Shown here in pieces: positions 37,732 through 44,856 of a stretch of 45,482 bases of DNA. Origin of the DNA: Chrysochromulina tobinii (lineage: Eukaryota); the NCBI GenBank assembly GCA_001275005.1, contig JWZX01002912.1, positions 1 through 45,482 of the forward strand, read 5' to 3'. How positions within the stretch are numbered: position 1 is the first letter of the stretch; the number at the start of each line of letters is the position of its first letter. Under the pieces are notes generated by a model, which saw only the letters and a program-made list of their open reading frames with translations, had not been told where the DNA came from and made no database searches. Made by a program: the position numbers and the translations under genes.

Positions 37732-40700
37732 ATGGCGACTTCTCTGTCGGCTCGTCTGTTCCTCTACGGCGCGGCCGGCGCCGTCGCGCTCTGCAGCTAC
37801 GTAGTCACGCGGCGCCGGCGTGCTCGAGCTGCCGAATGCGTCCAAGAACCAGAGCCAGGACCGCCGCGGGATCTCGTGGGCTACGGCCGCCGGCCGCCGC
37901 GCGCCGCTTGGCCAGCAGGCGCGGCCCTAGCAGTCAACTTTGCGATCAACATCGAGGAGGGCTCAGAACCGAGCATTCTCGACGGCGACGACAGGTCGAG
38001 CGGGGCACTATGCGAGTGCCCGAGCGAGGCGCCACCCGGCGTGCGCGACCTCGCCGCGGAGAACATGTTTGAGTACGGCTCGAGGGTAGGCATCTGGCGT
38101 TTGCTGCGCGCCTTTGAGCGGCGCTCGGCGCCCGCAACGGCGTTTGCGTGCTCGCTGGCGCTGGAGCGGCTGCCCGAGCTCGCGGCCGCCGTGCGCGACG
38201 GCGTCGCACGCGGCCTCCTCGACGTGTGTTGCCATGGATACCGTTGGGAGGACCATGTCGCGATGGACGAGGCGACGGAGCGATCTCGCATAAAGGCGGC
38301 GGTGGTCTCCCTCACGAGCACGCTCGGGGCGCCGCCCAAGGGCTGGTACTGCCGCACGGCACCCTCGATCCGCACGCGCCGCTTGCTCCTCGAGCACGGC
38401 GGCTTCGAGTACGATTCAGATGCCTACAACGACGAGCTGCCGTATTGGACTCGAGTGGTGACCTCCGATGGCGCCGAGCATTATCACCTGGTACGCGCCC
38501 CGTGATGTCGTTTCTGATGGCGTGTTGATCGCTTTCCGATGGCCTTCTCGAATGGCAGGTGCTTGATCCATACGGCCCGCTGATGACCTTTGATTGCCTC
38601 TTGATTGAAATACAATTGATGACCTCCTTGATTGCCTCCCTCATAGGTGCTGCCATACACACTGTGCACCAACGACTCCAAATTCGCGCCATTGATGACC
38701 TCCTTGATTGCCTCCCTCATCAGGTGCTGCCATACAATCTGTGCACCAACGACTCCAAATTCGCGCCAGGGCGCGCCTTCTCGACGGCAGATGACTTTTA
38801 CAACTTCGTTCGGGCCGCGGTCGATGCTCTGATCGAGGAGGCGGACACGACGGGCGTGCCCCGTATGCTTTCAGTTGGGTTGCACCCGCGTCTCATCGGG
38901 CATCCTGCACGTATCGGGTGAGTGCTCCTAATCGAGAGTGATTGGGGCCGTCATCAGCTGGCCGCCATCAGCTGATTGCTCTTGATCGAGAGTGATTGGG
39001 GCCGTCATCAGCTGGCCGCCATCGGCCGCTCCTGAAGACCCGTGCGATGTCGACCCCGTTGCACCCGCGTCCTTGCGCCCTCGGTGTTCCTGTGCTCGCA
39101 GCGGCTTGCATCAACTGCTCGACTATCTCATCGGGCTCGGTCCGAATCGAGTTTGGCTCGCGAAACGAGCGGACATCGCGTCTCATTGGCGGGCGCATCA
39201 TCCACCACCGGTGCTCGTGCCGAAGGCCGCTGCCCCGGCGGCGGAGGCGACGGAGGCGGGGGCGGCGGCGGCGGCGGTGACGGAGGCGGGGGCGAAGGTG
39301 GCGACGGCGAGTGCGGCGGCGGTGGTGGCGGCGGTGGCGCTGATCGAGGCGATGGTGGCGGTGACGATTGCGGCGACGGAGGTGACGATGGAGGCGGCGC
39401 ATGCGGCGGCGGCGGCGTTGCAGAGGGCGGTGGCCCTCCGTCAACGCCTCCGTCAACGCCTCCGTCAGTATGCCGAATCAGGAAGGCGGATCTACAACCT
39501 CCGCCACAACTTGAGTGCCGCCGCGACCATGAAAGCGTTCATCGACGCCTTTGAGGGAGGGGAGGGGAAGGAGGAGCTGCGGAAGCTGTTCCACTCAATC
39601 GACATCGACGGGAGCGGTGTCGTCTCGTCCAAGGAGTGGGGCAAGGCTATCGGGCAGCACTGGAAGCTGATGGGGCGTTTCTTTGGCGGGCTCACCGTTG
39701 GCGAGGTGGGCCAGATGTTCAAGAAGCTCGACGCGGACGGCTCGGGCGACCTCACGTGGGACGAGTTTGAGACTGCGCTGCAGCAGATGGACTGGAGCGT
39801 GCGGCTCGCTCAGGCCCTCGAGAGCCAATCTGGGGCGGCCGAGCTCAAGGCCTTGTGGGATCGTTTGGACAAGAACGGCGACGGCAAGGTCAGCGGCAAG
39901 GAGTGGGGCTCGGCGGTCCATGAGGACCAGCAGGTGATGGCCAAGTACTTTGGAGGGAAGGACCTCAAAGGGATTGGCAAGATGTTCTCCAAGATCGACG
40001 CCGATGGATCGGGAGATCTCACCTGGGACGAATTCGTCAACGGCTCGATTCGGCTCGTGCACTTGCCTAATTTGGACGAATTCGTCAAAGGCTCGATTCG
40101 GCTCGTCGCCGTCGCTACCGGCGACGCAGCCGGCGACGAGGCCGACGATGCCACTGCCGCGTCCTCGTCGGAGCTGCTCGATGCGAGATCTCGCGAGCAC
40201 CAGGGAGATCTCACCTCTTCGGAGCTGCTCGAGGCGAGATCTCGCGAGCTCCAGGGAGATCTCACCTCTTCGGAGCTGCTCGAGGCGGCGCCCTCTGCGC
40301 CGCCGCCGCCGCCCGTGCCGCGCCCCCATCTGCCATTCACGGGCCCCAGGCTGTTGATCACCGGAGGTGGAGGGTTCGTGCTTTCGCACGTCGTCGTGGC
40401 GTGGCTCGCCCAGGACGACGCGTCCCAAACCGACCTCACTGATGGATTGGCGCAAGGCGCCCAGGACGACGCACCTGCCGCCGCCACGCCCGCCGCCGCC
40501 ACGCCCGCCGCGAGGAGCGCTTCGAAAAAGGCGAGCGCGGCGTCTCCCCTCTCGAGCTGCGTCGTCTTCGATCGGCACTTCGACGCCGCCGCGCTCGCCT
40601 TCTTACGCGAAGCCCTCGCGAGCGGCCGGCTGCAGCTCTTCACAGGCGACGTGGGCGACGTTCACAGCTGGTCCCAGCTGGTCGACGCACACGGATCGCA

Positions 40701-43700
40701 CTTTTCCCACATGGTGCTCGGCGCGGCGCTCACGCCCACCGCGGACGAAGAGGCTCAACTCGGCGCCGAGGTGTTGCGCGTCAACTTCGTCGGCGTGCTG
40801 CATGCACTCGAGCTCGCGAGGAGCGGTTCCAAATTTGGGTGCCCCGCACTGCCACGCGTCGTGCTGGTCTCGTCGGACGCGGTGCGCTGATGACCTCTGA
40901 TGACCTCTCTGATGAGCCTCTGATGAGCCTCTGATGACTTCTGATGGGCCTCCGATGACCTCTGATGACCTCCGATGACCTCTGATGACTTCTGATGACC
41001 TCTCTGATGACCTCTGATGACCTTCCTCATTAGGTGCTCTCCGCCCCGGAGCTCGGCGGTGCTCTCCACTCACGCGAGCGCGACGCCAACCCCGACGCAC
41101 CGAGCGTGCCGCTGTACGCCCTCTCCAAATTAGGGAGCGAGGGCGTCGCCGAGCGCTACGCGTCGCTCTACGGCATCGAAGTGGTCTCCGTTCGCTTCAG
41201 CGATGTCTACGGTCCGATGGCGACACCGGTTGCATGCTGATTGCATGCTGATTGCATGCTGATTGCATGCTGATTGCCTCCCTCATCAGGGCCGATGGAT
41301 CGCGACACTGGCGCGCGCAACCGGCACAACGCGCCGTACCACGTGGCGACGAGATTGAGCCGAGATGAGCCGCTCGTAATCTCGGGCGATCTCGAGGACG
41401 TCGGATGGGATTACGTGGACGCGTCGAGCGTCGCGCGCGCCGTCGTGGCGTTGCTCACGGCGCCGACACGCCCGGGACGGCGCGTGTACGAGATCGCACT
41501 TGGGCGGCCAGTGACGCACGGTCAGTCTCGTTGATGGCCTCTGATTGCCTCGGATGGAGATCGCACTTGGGCGGCCAGTGACGCACGGTCAGCACACTTT
41601 GATGGCCCCTCTGATGGCTTCCACTGGACTACTTTAGCCTTGATTACATGCTGATTGCCTCTGATGGCCCTTTCCACTGGACACCCATCCTTGATTGCAT
41701 GCTGATTGCCTCCCTCATCAGGTGAGCTGCTCGCGGCGGCGCTCGAGCTTCCGCTGGACCATCTGTTGCAATCTCCGAGCTTGCTGACTGCTCGCGGCAT
41801 CAGCCTGGTGAGCAAGTCGGATGTTCACACCGCGGTAGCCCATGTTCACACCCTCCCGCCCGACCATTGGCTCCACGCACGCCCGCTCGATACGGCGCCC
41901 CTACTTGCCGAGTTTGGATGGCGTCCAACGCCTCTCGGGACCGCGATGGCGGAGTACATGGCGTGGCTGCGCCGGCAAGCCTCGCCCGGGACGACGCTGG
42001 CGCCCGGGACGACGCTGGCGCCCGGGACGACGCTGGCGCCCGGGACGACGCTGGCGCCCGGGACGACGCTGGCGCCCGGGACGACGCTGGCGCCCAACGA
42101 AGCAGCTGCCGCCGCCGCCGGCACCGCTACTGCCGCCGTGTCGACGGCCGGCGCTGCCGCGAGCGCGCCCTCAGCATCGCACACCACACTCAGCATTGCC
42201 CTCGACACCGCCTCCGGACTTCCGATGACGTGTCATCCACTCGCTGTGGAACTCTTTGGCCGACGGTTACAGCCACTAGGCCAGCGTGCGGTGAGAGCCC
42301 CTCATAGTGATTGCGACGGATTGCGACTCATGGCGACTGAGTGCGACTGAGTGCGACTGAGTGCGACTGACTATGTGCAGCTGAGCGTCTTCGTACTCTC
42401 CGAGATCGAGGGGCTACTCCATCCTTGATTGCATGCTGATTGCCTCCCTCATCAGCTGAGCGTCTTCGTACTCTCCGAGATCGAGGGGCTACTCCATCCT
42501 TGATTGCATGCTGATTGCCTCCCTCATCAGGTGAGCGTCTTCGTACTCTCGGAGATCGAGGGGCTGCGGGATGCCTTTGCGCTGGCTGGCTTCGATCCGG
42601 GATGCATGGCTTGGCTCTCTGACGCCATCAGTGGCACTCTGACGGTGGCGGACGTGCAGGTAAGTCTCGTTGATCGCCTCTGATCGCCTCTGCTTGCCTC
42701 TGCTTGCCTCTGATCGCCTCTGATCGCCTCTGATCGCCTCTGGTTGCCTCTGGTTGCAGGCGTGTCTCGAGCACGCGGAGGTGATCATCGGCGAGCCAAA
42801 AGGATCAACGCTCGAGCTGCTCGCCGCAGCGCCCAATCTCCGATGGTTCCAGGCACGTGATGATTGCATGACTGATTGCATGCTGATTGCCTCCCTCATC
42901 AACTGCTCGCCGCAGCGCCCAATCTCCGATGGTTCCAGGCACGTGATGATTGCATGACTGATTGCATGCTGATTGCCTCCCTCATCAGCTGCTCGCCGCA
43001 GCGCCCAATCTCCGATGGTTCCAGGCATGTGATCGACAGCAGACAGGCTGTCACGGCTGGAAGACCTGATTGCCTACCTCATCAGGCGACCTTTGCTCGC
43101 GGTCACGGCAGCTCAGCTGATTGCCTCCCTCATCAGGCGACCTTTGCTGGCTGTAACGGCATGATGAGCATGCCTCTGCCGGTCGCTCCTTTCGTGACGA
43201 CGCGGCTCGGTGGGGCCTTAGGTGCGGACATTGCCGAGTACGTGGCGGCGCACGTGCTTGCCCTCGAGCGCGGGCTCGGCGTGCATGCAAGCGCTCAGCA
43301 GCGCGCGGCGTGGCCCGATGACGAAACCCGCCGGCGCTCGTACCGGCGGCTCCCGTCGCTCACGCTCGGGATTCTCGGGCTCGGAGATCTCGGACGTGCT
43401 GTCGCTCAGCGCCTCGGCCCTGGATGCCTCGGCATGCGTATCGTCGGCCTTCGACGGACAGGCTCGTCCGCCGGCGGAGTCTCGTCAACCGGCGGAGTCT
43501 CGTCAACCGGCGGAGTCTCGTCAACCGGCGGAGTCTCGTCAACCGGCGGGGTCTCGTCAACCGAGATGGGCGCCCGTGGCCCAGCCGAGGAGCCGACGGA
43601 GGGTTTGGTCAGCCGTATCTACGGGCCGACGGAGCTCGCGAGATTCCTCGGCGAGTGCGACTACATCGTCTCGCTCTTGCCCGACACGCCGGCCAGCCGC

Positions 43701-44104
43701 GGTCTGCTCGACCACGACGCCTTGGCGCCGTGTGCTACGAAGCAGCCGGTGCTCATCAACGCGGGGCGTGGCTCGCTCATCTCCGAGGCGGAGATCACGC
43801 GAGCTCTCGATCTCGGCTATCTGCGCCACGTGGTCGCCGACGTCTTCATGACCGAGCCGCTCCCCGCGTCCTCGCCCCTCTGGCGCCACCCGAAGGTGAC
43901 CATCACGACGCTGATTGCCACTGATGACGCTGATTGCCACTGATGACCTCGCCCCTCTGGCGCCACCCGAAGGTGACCATCACCCCCCACGTCGCGGCGG
44001 TGACGAAACCGGCTGACGTGGTCGCTTGCTTTGGGGAGAACCTGAAGAGGTACGCGGCGGGTGAGCCCCTCAAGTATGTCTTCGATCTGGAGCGCGCCTA
44101 TTAA
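37732..44104 (+). CDS. Composite ~1607-aa protein: PuuE-type allantoinase/polysaccharide deacetylase + 4 EF-hands + NAD-dependent epimerase + D-2-hydroxyacid dehydrogenase; exons 37732-38490, 38724-38917, 39102-40881, 41034-41211, 41290-41520, 41722-42290, 42531-42659, 42760-42852, 43137-43895, 43973-44104
   Basis: PuuE: RDLVGYG, NIEEG, EYGSRVG, HGYRW, YDSDAYNDELPYW, GLHPRLIGHP. EF-hands: DIDGSGVVSSKE, DADGSGDLTWDE (x2), DKNGDGKVSGKE. Epimerase: ITGGGGFV, VSSDAV, YALSK, VYGP. Dehydrogenase: LRWFQ|ATFAG, GLGDLG, LINAGRG, DVFMTEPLP, ITPHVA. The exons sum to 4824 nt in one open frame. Confidence 0.75.
40882..41033 (+). repeat. Intron with (CTGATGACCT)n array ending in variant acceptor TGACCTTCCTCATTAG
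   Basis: About 13 degenerate units; removal gives VSSDA|VLSAP. Confidence 0.85.
41983..42095 (+). repeat. Six perfect 18-bp coding repeats (PGTTLA)
   Basis: CGCCCGGGACGACGCTGG x6 in the epimerase-dehydrogenase linker. Confidence 0.95.
43471..43560 (+). repeat. Five 18-bp coding repeats (GGVSST)
   Basis: CCGGCGGAGTCTCGTCAA x5 inside the dehydrogenase domain. Confidence 0.95.
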
Positions 44105-44856
44105 GTCATGTCAAGTCAGCCCCTCAAGTATGTCTTCGATCTGGAGCGCGCCTATTAAGTCATGTCAAGTCAGCCCCTCAAGTATGTCTTCGATCTGGAG
44201 CGCGCCTACTGAGGCGCCTCTGGTGCTCCTGAGAGCTCATAGCCGAGATCGAGAGCTCGCATGATCTCCGCCTCGGAGATGAGCGTGCCACGACTAGAGT
44301 GAGGCGCCTCTCGAGAGCAATTGAGTTCTCCTTGAAGTTAGGACTCCGACAGAACTGTGCTCGATTCATCGGCCGCTGTGCTGAGCTCTAATTTTGGCGA
44401 CGCTGTGTGCGGAGCAGAACCTGCGAATATGTACTTATAAGGCGCTTGCTGCATATAACTTTACGGGATTGTGCGTTGTCGTGGGCGGGGGCACGATATC
44501 GTGGGATCTGACGATAACGCGACCGTCCCCCCGTCAATATCGCACAACGACCGACGAGTGGTAATGCTGAGCAGAGGGACAGGGAGCGCGTGCGGGTGCG
44601 CGAGGGCGAAGGGGTCAGGGAGCGCGGGCGAGATCATGGTTGGGTTTTTGTGACGAAAGTTCCGAACCTCATGGGCAATTTCCGGAAATTGCCCACGGAC
44701 TGTTCGAATGAACTTTTTGGTAGGGGGGACCGGACTGAACTTTTTTGGAAGGCACACACAGCGTCACTAAGCCGAAACTGGCGAGTTTCTGGACAGTGCG
44801 CTCGCGCGGCTCTGGACATTGCGCTCGGACGGCTGCCCTCAACGAGGCTTTGCAAC

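What the first reader, a model, noticed from the sequence alone, without database searches (positions are those of the whole stretch)
42817..43136. Stacked insertion units at a GC-AG intron create decoy splice sites and a potential in-frame micro-exon
An 86-bp period (exon-end copy CTGCTCGCC...TTCCAGGCA plus repeat and cassette) starts at 42817, 42903 and 42989. The duplicated segment begins just after an exonic AG (42815-42816), so the cassette's terminal AG lines up with a genomic AG. One cassette ends AA (42902, dead acceptor). The next ends AG and leaves a 36-nt in-frame pseudo-exon 42989-43024 (LLAAAPNLRWFQ) with a GC donor. A further cassette plus GCGACCTTTGCT at 43066-43097 precedes the real acceptor at 43136. 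GC donors are known to be common in the haptophyte Emiliania.
Basis: partly seen in the sequence, partly recalled or inferred. Interest (0 to 1): 0.75.

Follow-up and report, generated by a model that had tools for sequence, protein, structure and literature searches.

The report
Copied intron ends breed new introns
The stacked repeats are skipped leftovers inside one ordinary intron, with no mini-exon seen in the RNA, but they belong to a pattern found at many genes of this alga, in which a short piece of the gene is doubled around a copied intron end, which likely makes new introns without a classic jumping gene.

Summary
The coordinates are right. RNA contigs of two runs show one GC-AG intron, 42853-43136, and no 36-nt micro-exon; four homologues have the peptide once. 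DNA contigs hold the cassette-to-exon-copy junction; whether there are one or two units is unresolved. The stack is one case of a wider process. In 135 metagenome loci with the same 20-nt branch-point/acceptor cassette, 74 of 170 terminal cassettes have an upstream copy of their own downstream sequence (shuffles 1-3). Removing first copy through cassette restores codon phase in 17 of 18. Both junctions show microhomology; AG precedes the copy in 5 of 8 mid-exon cases where splicing does not need it (background 6%). Filler is shared between neighbouring introns more than chance (7 of 30 loci, null 1.7). Best reading: microhomology-guided copying of existing intron 3' ends, with variable target duplication, likely makes introns at G|GT or AG|GC and leaves harmless stacks elsewhere. 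No empty allele was seen, so intron gain is inferred. The scan noted this footprint before on another piece of this genome (e1-2577349).

The parts
42760..42852 (+). Exon of a 2-hydroxyacid dehydrogenase-like region, ending ...LRWFQ
   Evidence: RNA contig lengths; aligns with P0001-P0004
42815..42816 (+). Exonic AG just before the duplicated stretch; matches the cassette's last two bases (likely the microhomology of the return junction)
   Evidence: enrichment at like sites
42817..42855 (+). Duplicated stretch, first copy: last 36 nt of the exon plus the used GC donor (GCA)
42853..43136 (+). The intron that is spliced: 284 nt, GC...AG
   Evidence: only GT/GC..AG solution of the RNA skip
42856..42902 (+). 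TGATTGCATG-type filler plus cassette ending AA (dead acceptor)
   Evidence: X15 contig covers to 42896
42903..42988 (+). Second 86-nt unit: exon-end copy, decoy GC donor at 42939, filler, perfect cassette ending AG (decoy acceptor, followed by CT)
   Evidence: junction 42962-43016 in DNA contigs of X3 and X7
42989..43024 (+). 36-nt pseudo-exon, in frame, not included in the two bridging RNA contigs
   Evidence: X13 record 8, X14 record 13
43025..43065 (+). Likely the intron's older 5' part: GC donor, now a decoy, and a decayed off-register copy of the next exon's start at 43046-43064 (15 of 19)
43066..43085 (+). Variant cassette, likely an older acceptor, skipped; its use would add 17 codons in frame
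43086..43110 (+). Copy of the next exon's first 25 nt (22 of 25)
43117..43136 (+). Perfect 20-nt cassette (CTGAT branch-point-like motif, pyrimidine run, CAG): the used acceptor
   Evidence: RNA pieces of X12, X13 and X14 start at 43134
43137..43895 (+). Next exon, with most of the PF02826 NAD-binding domain
   Evidence: E 4.9e-32
41685..41727 (+). 3' end of an upstream intron plus 6 exon bases, identical over 43 nt to 42494-42536: likely template or copy in a local copying event
   Evidence: (family D16)
42378..42565 (+). Sister stack (75-nt period) at the acceptor of intron 42291-42530; decoy AGs followed by C, used AG by G
43896..43972 (+). 77-nt intron whose donor and acceptor both come from a doubled exon stretch around AAG|GT, with CTGAT filler between
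   Evidence: RNA skip in X13 and X14

Best explanation
The stretch is one GC-AG intron (42853-43136) holding skipped duplication debris, and it was likely built by repeated microhomology-guided copying of existing intron 3' ends into the gene. Proposed mechanism: during repair or replication the new strand copies a stretch X of the gene, switches at a 1-4 nt match onto the CTGAT repeats near the 3' end of another intron (often a nearby one), copies filler and the 20-nt branch-point/acceptor cassette, and returns at a short match around the cassette's end (AG, G|GT, CAG|GC) to the start of X, so X is doubled. The outcome depends on where X starts. At an exonic G|GT or AG|GC the first copy gives the donor and the cassette the acceptor: a precise new intron. 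At an existing acceptor the acceptor moves downstream (43086-43136). In mid-exon, running through an existing donor, the first donor is still used and the insert is harmless debris (42817-42988). Slippage then multiplies units (the 86-nt pair). Shown: the anatomy, the splice used, the doubling, phase restoration, the junction biases, the local similarity. Inferred: the order of events, that introns are gained, and the template-switch mechanism. Whether the template is DNA or RNA is open.
For: RNA: one intron, no micro-exon; removing the 7 RNA-defined introns gives 1149 open codons with the peptide once. Doubling: 74 of 170 terminal cassettes against 1-3 of 170 in five shuffles; scored duplicated stretches 13-68 nt in 41 clean cases, the longest including filler. 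Removing first copy through cassette restores codon phase in 17 of 18 testable GT/GC cases, 10 of 10 where the insert is not a multiple of 3. Left junction: AG before the first copy in 6 of 11 cases that do not start with GT/GC (background 6.1%), 5 of 8 for mid-exon starts; cut-short cassettes joined to a duplicate are rare (4 among 118 cores other than the search pattern), so conditioning on a whole cassette does not explain it. Right junction: mean microhomology 1.19 nt against 0.58 +/- 0.17 simulated, 0 of 2000 reach it (27 of 84 events scorable). Local template: 12 of 91 same-locus intron pairs share 8 nt or more of filler against 2.3% of 13,589 other pairs; without the window 7 of 30 loci against a null mean of 1.7, 1 of 5000; two introns of this gene share 43 nt that run 6 nt into their unrelated exons. 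No fixed length (16-133 nt non-duplicated) and no terminal inverted repeats (3 of 79). All 7 introns of this gene resemble the next exon's start (37 of 70 at positions 3-12), though the focal one only off register.
Against: No allele or orthologue without the insert was seen (5 strain or paralogue pairs aligned), so gain is inferred from anatomy alone. For GT/GC starts the G or AG before the copy (24 and 10 of 26) is also what donor-site selection predicts. The mid-exon class is small, and 3 of the 11 cases were set aside by eye (L033, L060, L064). Right-junction microhomology is weak: 11 of 27 have none. Local similarity could come from later gene conversion, or from repeated domains in some loci. 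96 of 170 cassettes show no duplicate. The loci come from 4 of 64 parts of one collection, many from re-assemblies of what is likely one organism, and were picked by the cassette.
Confidence: 0.58

Rival explanations
1. A non-autonomous retro-element or an RNA copy of an intron end is inserted by target-primed reverse transcription: fixed 3' end at the cassette's AG, variable 5' end, variable target-site duplication. It is then an introner of the non-LTR type.
For: Fixed 3' end, ragged 5' end and variable duplications are hallmarks of target-primed insertion (established knowledge, recalled). Non-LTR introners exist (about 5% of classified cases, PMC12130899 section 6), one in a haptophyte with 'co-opt 5', carry 3'' geometry (Pavlovales fam1). 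Very high summed contig depth over the filler and cassette in a DNA run hints at many copies (not a copy number).
Against: Duplications often exceed 25 nt; no poly(A) tail; fillers differ from site to site and resemble neighbouring introns; one shared piece runs 6 nt into the exon beyond the AG, which an excised intron RNA would lack; no long copy among 39 clean inserts measured (16-133 nt). No genome was available to look for a master element.
Confidence: 0.22
2. The cassette is only a strongly selected 3' splice signal reached by convergence, and the stacks are ordinary tandem duplications or slippage across existing splice sites, homogenised by gene conversion; no intron is gained.
For: Intron-poor lineages converge on fixed branch-point and acceptor structures (PMC2483917 abstract). 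This genome is rich in tandem repeats in exons and introns alike. 25 of 84 first copies are preceded by a cassette and could be plain tandem duplications.
Against: In the clean cases the first copy follows exon sequence directly and the cassette lies between the copies with no local precursor, which plain tandem duplication cannot give; phase is restored exactly at the copy's first base (17 of 18); two of the gene's 7 confirmed introns splice without the cassette, so it is not required.
Confidence: 0.12
3. The stack is a functional alternative-splicing device: the 36-nt exon, or the 51-nt extension from 43085, is included in some transcripts and changes the enzyme.
For: Both additions are in frame and stop-free; the flanking introns would be 136 and 112 nt, within the range of this gene's introns.
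Against: Neither is in the two bridging RNA contigs; 4 of 4 homologues have one copy; the pseudo-exon starts with CT, whereas all 7 used acceptors are followed by G, and 155 of 186 terminal against 60 of 114 internal cassettes are followed by GT or GC. One bridging contig is from another strain that may lack the stack.
Confidence: 0.05
4. The 86-nt array is partly an assembly artefact (one real unit shown as two, or none).
For: The AA junction was in no listed contig of X3 or X7, and no piece spans the array.
Against: The cassette-to-copy junction is in two DNA runs at single-copy depth, and exon-copy-filler-cassette is in a third run; the two units differ at one base; like stacks occur in other assemblies. 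At least one unit is real.
Confidence: 0.03

Closest known systems
Introner-like elements of Symbiodinium and Polarella glacialis, classes 1, 4, 5, 6, 8, 10 (bioRxiv 10.1101/2020.10.14.339549; parts 1-2 of 4 read)
   Same: The insert carries the 3' splice site, the donor comes from the start of the target duplication, GC donors are tolerated, exons start with G, phase 0 is favoured (here 11 of 17).
   Different: The duplication lengths stated there are fixed per class at 3-8 nt, and the Symbiodinium elements have inverted repeats; here duplications are long and variable, inserts vary in length and sequence, inverted ends are absent, and inserts stack on existing splice sites.
Emiliania huxleyi introner family 24 and Pavlovales fam1 in the dataset of PMC12130899 (supplement rows)
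   Same: Haptophytes; 'co-opt 5', carry 3''; family 24 is noted as having 10-bp terminal direct repeats and is unclassified; fam1 is classed non-LTR.
   Different: 5 and 7 copies; sequences not seen, so kinship is untested. The same dataset lists 0 families for Chrysochromulina tobinii, the likely kin of this window.
Introners of a marine Chrysochromulina MAG (bioRxiv 10.1101/2022.06.06.494994, passages)
   Same: Same genus name, no terminal inverted repeats, one splice site carried and one co-opted.
   Different: 4-bp duplications and opposite polarity: they carry the donor and co-opt the acceptor.
[quoted passage not shown]
   Same: Direct repeats overlap the splice sites; microhomology captures a fragment at a staggered break.
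   Different: There the captured DNA is unrelated from case to case and few events are resolved; here the same ready-made acceptor is copied again and again, often like that of a neighbouring intron.
Intron gain by tandem genomic duplication of AGGT (PMC3265369 abstract; PMC3443670 passages)
   Same: A doubled exon stretch supplies the donor; intron 43896-43972 takes both sites from the duplicate.
   Different: Most introns here get branch point and acceptor from a foreign cassette placed between the copies.

Membership tests
DNA-transposon (MITE-type) introner | Terminal inverted repeats | tested here: not met
   3 of 79 inserts have 8-nt ends complementary within 2 mismatches
DNA-transposon (MITE-type) introner | Short target-site duplication of fixed length | tested here: not met
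   13-68 nt scored in 41 clean cases; stretches under 12 nt were below the threshold
Introner in the broad sense | Many introns at unrelated sites share sequence | tested here: met
   174 distinct exact cassette sites in 135 loci; sharing limited to the 3' 20 nt and repeat filler
Introner in the broad sense | Near full-length similarity and a common length among copies | tested here: not met
   non-duplicated part 16-133 nt; 2.3% of cross-locus pairs share 8 nt or more of filler
Introner in the broad sense | Insert is spliced out precisely | tested here: met
   RNA for 7 introns of this gene; codon phase 17 of 18 elsewhere
Introner in the broad sense | Empty sites in alleles or close relatives | tested here: inconclusive
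   none seen in 5 aligned pairs; no genome held
Non-LTR retro-element (SINE-like) insertion | Fixed 3' end, variable 5' end, variable duplication | tested here: met
Non-LTR retro-element (SINE-like) insertion | A master element, or an autonomous partner with the same 3' end; A-rich or repeat tail | not testable with these tools
   no whole genome; no tail at the cassette's end; no Rfam match in 42700-43250
Repair or replication template-switch insertion | Microhomology at both junctions | tested here: met
   left 5 of 8 AG in mid-exon cases; right 1.19 against 0.58 nt; modest sizes
Repair or replication template-switch insertion | Insert templated from nearby sequence | tested here: met
   7 of 30 loci against 1.7; 43-nt identity in the window; conversion not excluded
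Functional micro-exon | Inclusion in mRNA; conservation in homologues | tested here: not met
   0 of 2 bridging RNA contigs; 0 of 4 homologues

The most novel reading that the evidence does not exclude
This alga gains introns in bulk with no transposon: repair or replication copies the 3' end of an existing, often neighbouring, intron into a gene and doubles the landing site, so every new intron is a template for the next. The chain reaction has made a large share of the genome's introns and is invisible to introner pipelines because only 20 nt are shared; stacked AG|GT and AG|GC units would be tolerated because each rebuilds a donor after splicing (recursive splicing).
Probability: 0.4. Interest if true: 0.85.

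Novelty: new variant of a known kind. Interest (0 to 1): 0.62.

Why it matters
Where new spliceosomal introns come from is a long-standing question. PMC12130899 states that introners are the only mechanism able to explain bursts of gain. Here many introns carry a readable record of their making: a long doubled exon stretch, a copied acceptor, short matches at both joints. If the copying is by repair or replication from neighbouring introns, this is a bulk route to intron gain that needs no mobile element, in a culturable alga where strain comparison can test it directly. The focal stack matters because its AG alignment is not needed for splicing, so it separates a mutational bias from selection. 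The micro-exon itself has no support.

Tried and rejected
Whole genome: none held, so no genome-wide count and no search for a master element. The cassette was found in neither viral nor prokaryote contigs. A stop-free-frame test of the predicted introns was uninformative: 16 of 18 open, but mis-spliced controls gave 14 and 15; it was replaced by the codon-phase test. The first right-junction test (1.51 nt, 39 events) was inflated by overlapping loci and is superseded. The search for empty alleles in overlapping loci found only repeat-number and unrelated indels. The search for a full-length fused homologue of the dehydrogenase found nothing at E 1e-20 (weak). Protein searches did not name the organism. 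No Rfam match. Missing cover at 42846-42860 and 42906-42950 in DNA contigs is not taken as absence. The Emiliania genome paper is not held. Ten paper searches gave no description of this cassette or of long variable duplications at haptophyte introns; subscription journals, two supplement files of PMC12130899, the cut part of the PMC9860276 file and the families' sequences were not seen and may bear on novelty.

Full report
Observation. Every coordinate given is correct. Tandem Repeats Finder reports period 86, 2.5 copies, 42817-43033. Each unit is 39 nt of exon end plus donor, 27 nt of TGATTGCATG-type filler and a 20-nt cassette that reads as branch point, pyrimidine run and CAG. The cassette occurs 10 times in the window within 1 mismatch and never within 2 mismatches in 10 block shuffles. 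The copy of the next exon's start after 43085 is 25 nt long (22 identical), and an older decayed copy lies at 43046-43064 (15 of 19). An acceptor at 43085 would add 17 codons in frame.

The gene. The region lies in a + strand fusion gene with EF-hand, epimerase (at threshold) and 2-hydroxyacid dehydrogenase domains. The window is 63.7% GC and is held by mixed-culture and freshwater runs; Chrysochromulina tobin is 63.4% GC (PMC4580454, passages). The organism is therefore likely a freshwater Chrysochromulina, but no call names it.

What is spliced. Of three RNA runs laid, two have a contig bridging the place. X13 record 8 leaves 220 letters between its pieces ending at 42289 and starting at 43134: exactly 42530-42659 plus 42760-42849; the micro-exon would make 256. 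X14 record 13 leaves 95 letters between 42654 and 43134; the micro-exon would make 131. These are sums from the piece table, which does not list the middle pieces. X13 is another strain (17 other letters in 1418) and may lack the stack; X14 has no differences there. X12's piece also starts at 43134. The only GT/GC..AG solution is 42853-43136; with six other RNA-defined introns removed, the frame is open for 1149 codons and has the peptide once. All four homologues found read through the site with one copy. Contigs drop rare forms, so low inclusion is not excluded. The two further RNA runs had no bridging spliced contig.

Is it in the DNA. Runs X3 and X7 both have a contig for cassette-AG into the exon copy (42962-43016, depth 45.8 and 41.6 against 44.2 and 38.4 for the neighbouring unique contig) and one for 42987-43200; X15 has exon, first copy, filler and cassette (42756-42896). 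At least one unit is real. The AA junction was not listed, so two units rest on the window's assembly.

The wider pattern. No genome is held. Many are re-assemblies of what is likely one organism; overlaps were mapped and sites de-duplicated by context. Of 175 terminal cassettes, 5 followed by filler were dropped; 74 of the other 170 have an upstream copy of their downstream sequence within 300 nt, against 1-3 in five shuffles. Of 84 distinct first-copy junctions, 25 follow a cassette, 18 follow filler and 41 follow clean sequence; 30 of those 41 start with GT or GC. For the 18 of 30 with long enough flanks, removing first copy through cassette makes the codon phases agree in 17, and in 10 of 10 whose length is not a multiple of 3. 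These are introns whose donor is the start of a copy of the next exon. In the window's own gene the seven intron starts match the next exon at 37 of 70 positions 3-12, for example GTAAGTCTCG against GCGTGTCTCG; the focal intron matches only off register. Intron 43896-43972 takes both sites from a doubled stretch.

For GT starts, G precedes the first copy in 24 of 26 and AG in 10 of 26, far above background, but donor selection predicts the same. The informative class is the focal one, where the copy starts in mid-exon and runs through an existing donor, so the AG is not needed. Among 11 non-GT/GC starts outside the window, 6 follow AG (background 6.1%). I set aside by eye one probable native acceptor (L033, AG) and two intronic cases (L060, L064, no AG), leaving 5 of 8, p 4e-5. 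Conditioning on complete cassettes does not explain this: among 118 cores other than the search pattern, 69 end in AG, 20 continue into a second standard ending, and only 4 are cut short and joined to a duplicate. At the other junction, mean microhomology with the filler is 1.19 nt against 0.58 +/- 0.17 simulated (27 of 84 events scorable; 11 have none).

Where the insert comes from. The non-duplicated part is 16-133 nt and lacks inverted ends (3 of 79). Introns 250-4000 nt apart in one locus share 8 nt or more of filler in 12 of 91 pairs against 2.3% of 13,589 cross-locus pairs; counting loci and leaving out the window, 7 of 30 against 1.7 (1 of 5000 permutations). In the window, 41685-41727 and 42494-42536 are identical over 43 nt, including 6 exon bases, and the 17-nt filler part occurs in no other locus. 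This fits copying from a neighbouring intron end with a return match spanning the AG; later gene conversion would look similar.

Likely history of the focal intron (inferred). An insert at CAG|GC made the intron (donor now at 43025, acceptor 43085). A second doubled the next exon's first 25 nt and moved the acceptor to 43136. A third doubled the exon end from the AG at 42815 through the donor, moving the used donor to 42853. Slippage doubled that unit and one cassette became AA. The decoy at 42988 is followed by CT; all seven used acceptors are followed by G, and terminal cassettes are followed by GT or GC in 155 of 186 against 60 of 114 internal ones. Decoys followed by GT or GC could be removed by a second splice; this is untested.

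Comparison with what is known. The geometry (donor from the duplication, acceptor carried) is that of several dinoflagellate introner classes, whose stated duplications are fixed at 3-8 nt. A marine Chrysochromulina introner has 4-bp duplications and the opposite polarity. The 2025 survey lists 0 families for C. tobinii and a 5-copy unclassified Emiliania family with 10-bp terminal direct repeats and the same geometry; its sequence was not seen. Repair-associated gain with direct repeats and tandem-duplication gain are established. It works like an introner but fails the tests for a DNA-transposon introner. Ten searches found no description of this cassette, within the limits given under Tried and rejected.

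Verdict. Observation confirmed; micro-exon not supported; AG alignment supported; the stack is debris of a process that likely creates introns. New variant of a known kind, interest 0.62. Gain is unproven until an empty allele is shown.

Noticed in passing
window 43896-43972: RNA-supported 77-nt intron with both splice sites from a 37-nt doubled exon stretch around AAG|GT and CTGAT filler between: a clean tandem-duplication-type intron.
   Followed up: partly
window 42378-42565: 75-nt stack at the acceptor of intron 42291-42530; both decoy AGs are followed by C, the used one by G.
   Followed up: partly
window 38615-38768: 77-nt tandem of cassette plus exon start; the first cassette is one base shorter. 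Not covered by the RNA lay.
   Followed up: no
window 37930-44213: A polysaccharide-deacetylase/allantoinase-like exon (37930-38490) lies upstream in the same orientation; its best homologues are fused to epimerase domains, so deacetylase, EF-hands, epimerase and dehydrogenase may be one long fusion gene.
   Followed up: partly
window 44064-44208: 54-nt tandem of the last codons with TAA stops before a final copy with TGA: the same doubling at the gene's end, without cassette.
   Followed up: no
window 43767-43820 and 44239-44292: 54-nt inverted copy (96%) of coding sequence just after the stop codon, a possible template-switch product or mRNA hairpin.
   Followed up: no
window 41490-41592: Exon end plus donor of intron 41521-41721 is doubled around filler without a cassette.
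   Followed up: no
loci L005, L028, L050, L066, L071: A second standard acceptor ending: the cassette core continues ATTGC ATGCAG in place of ATCAG (20 of 118 non-exact cores continue ATTGC).
   Followed up: no
window 42660-42669; L023 near 1400: Intron-side copies that now read GTAAG while the exon copy does not: possible later improvement of a new donor.
   Followed up: no
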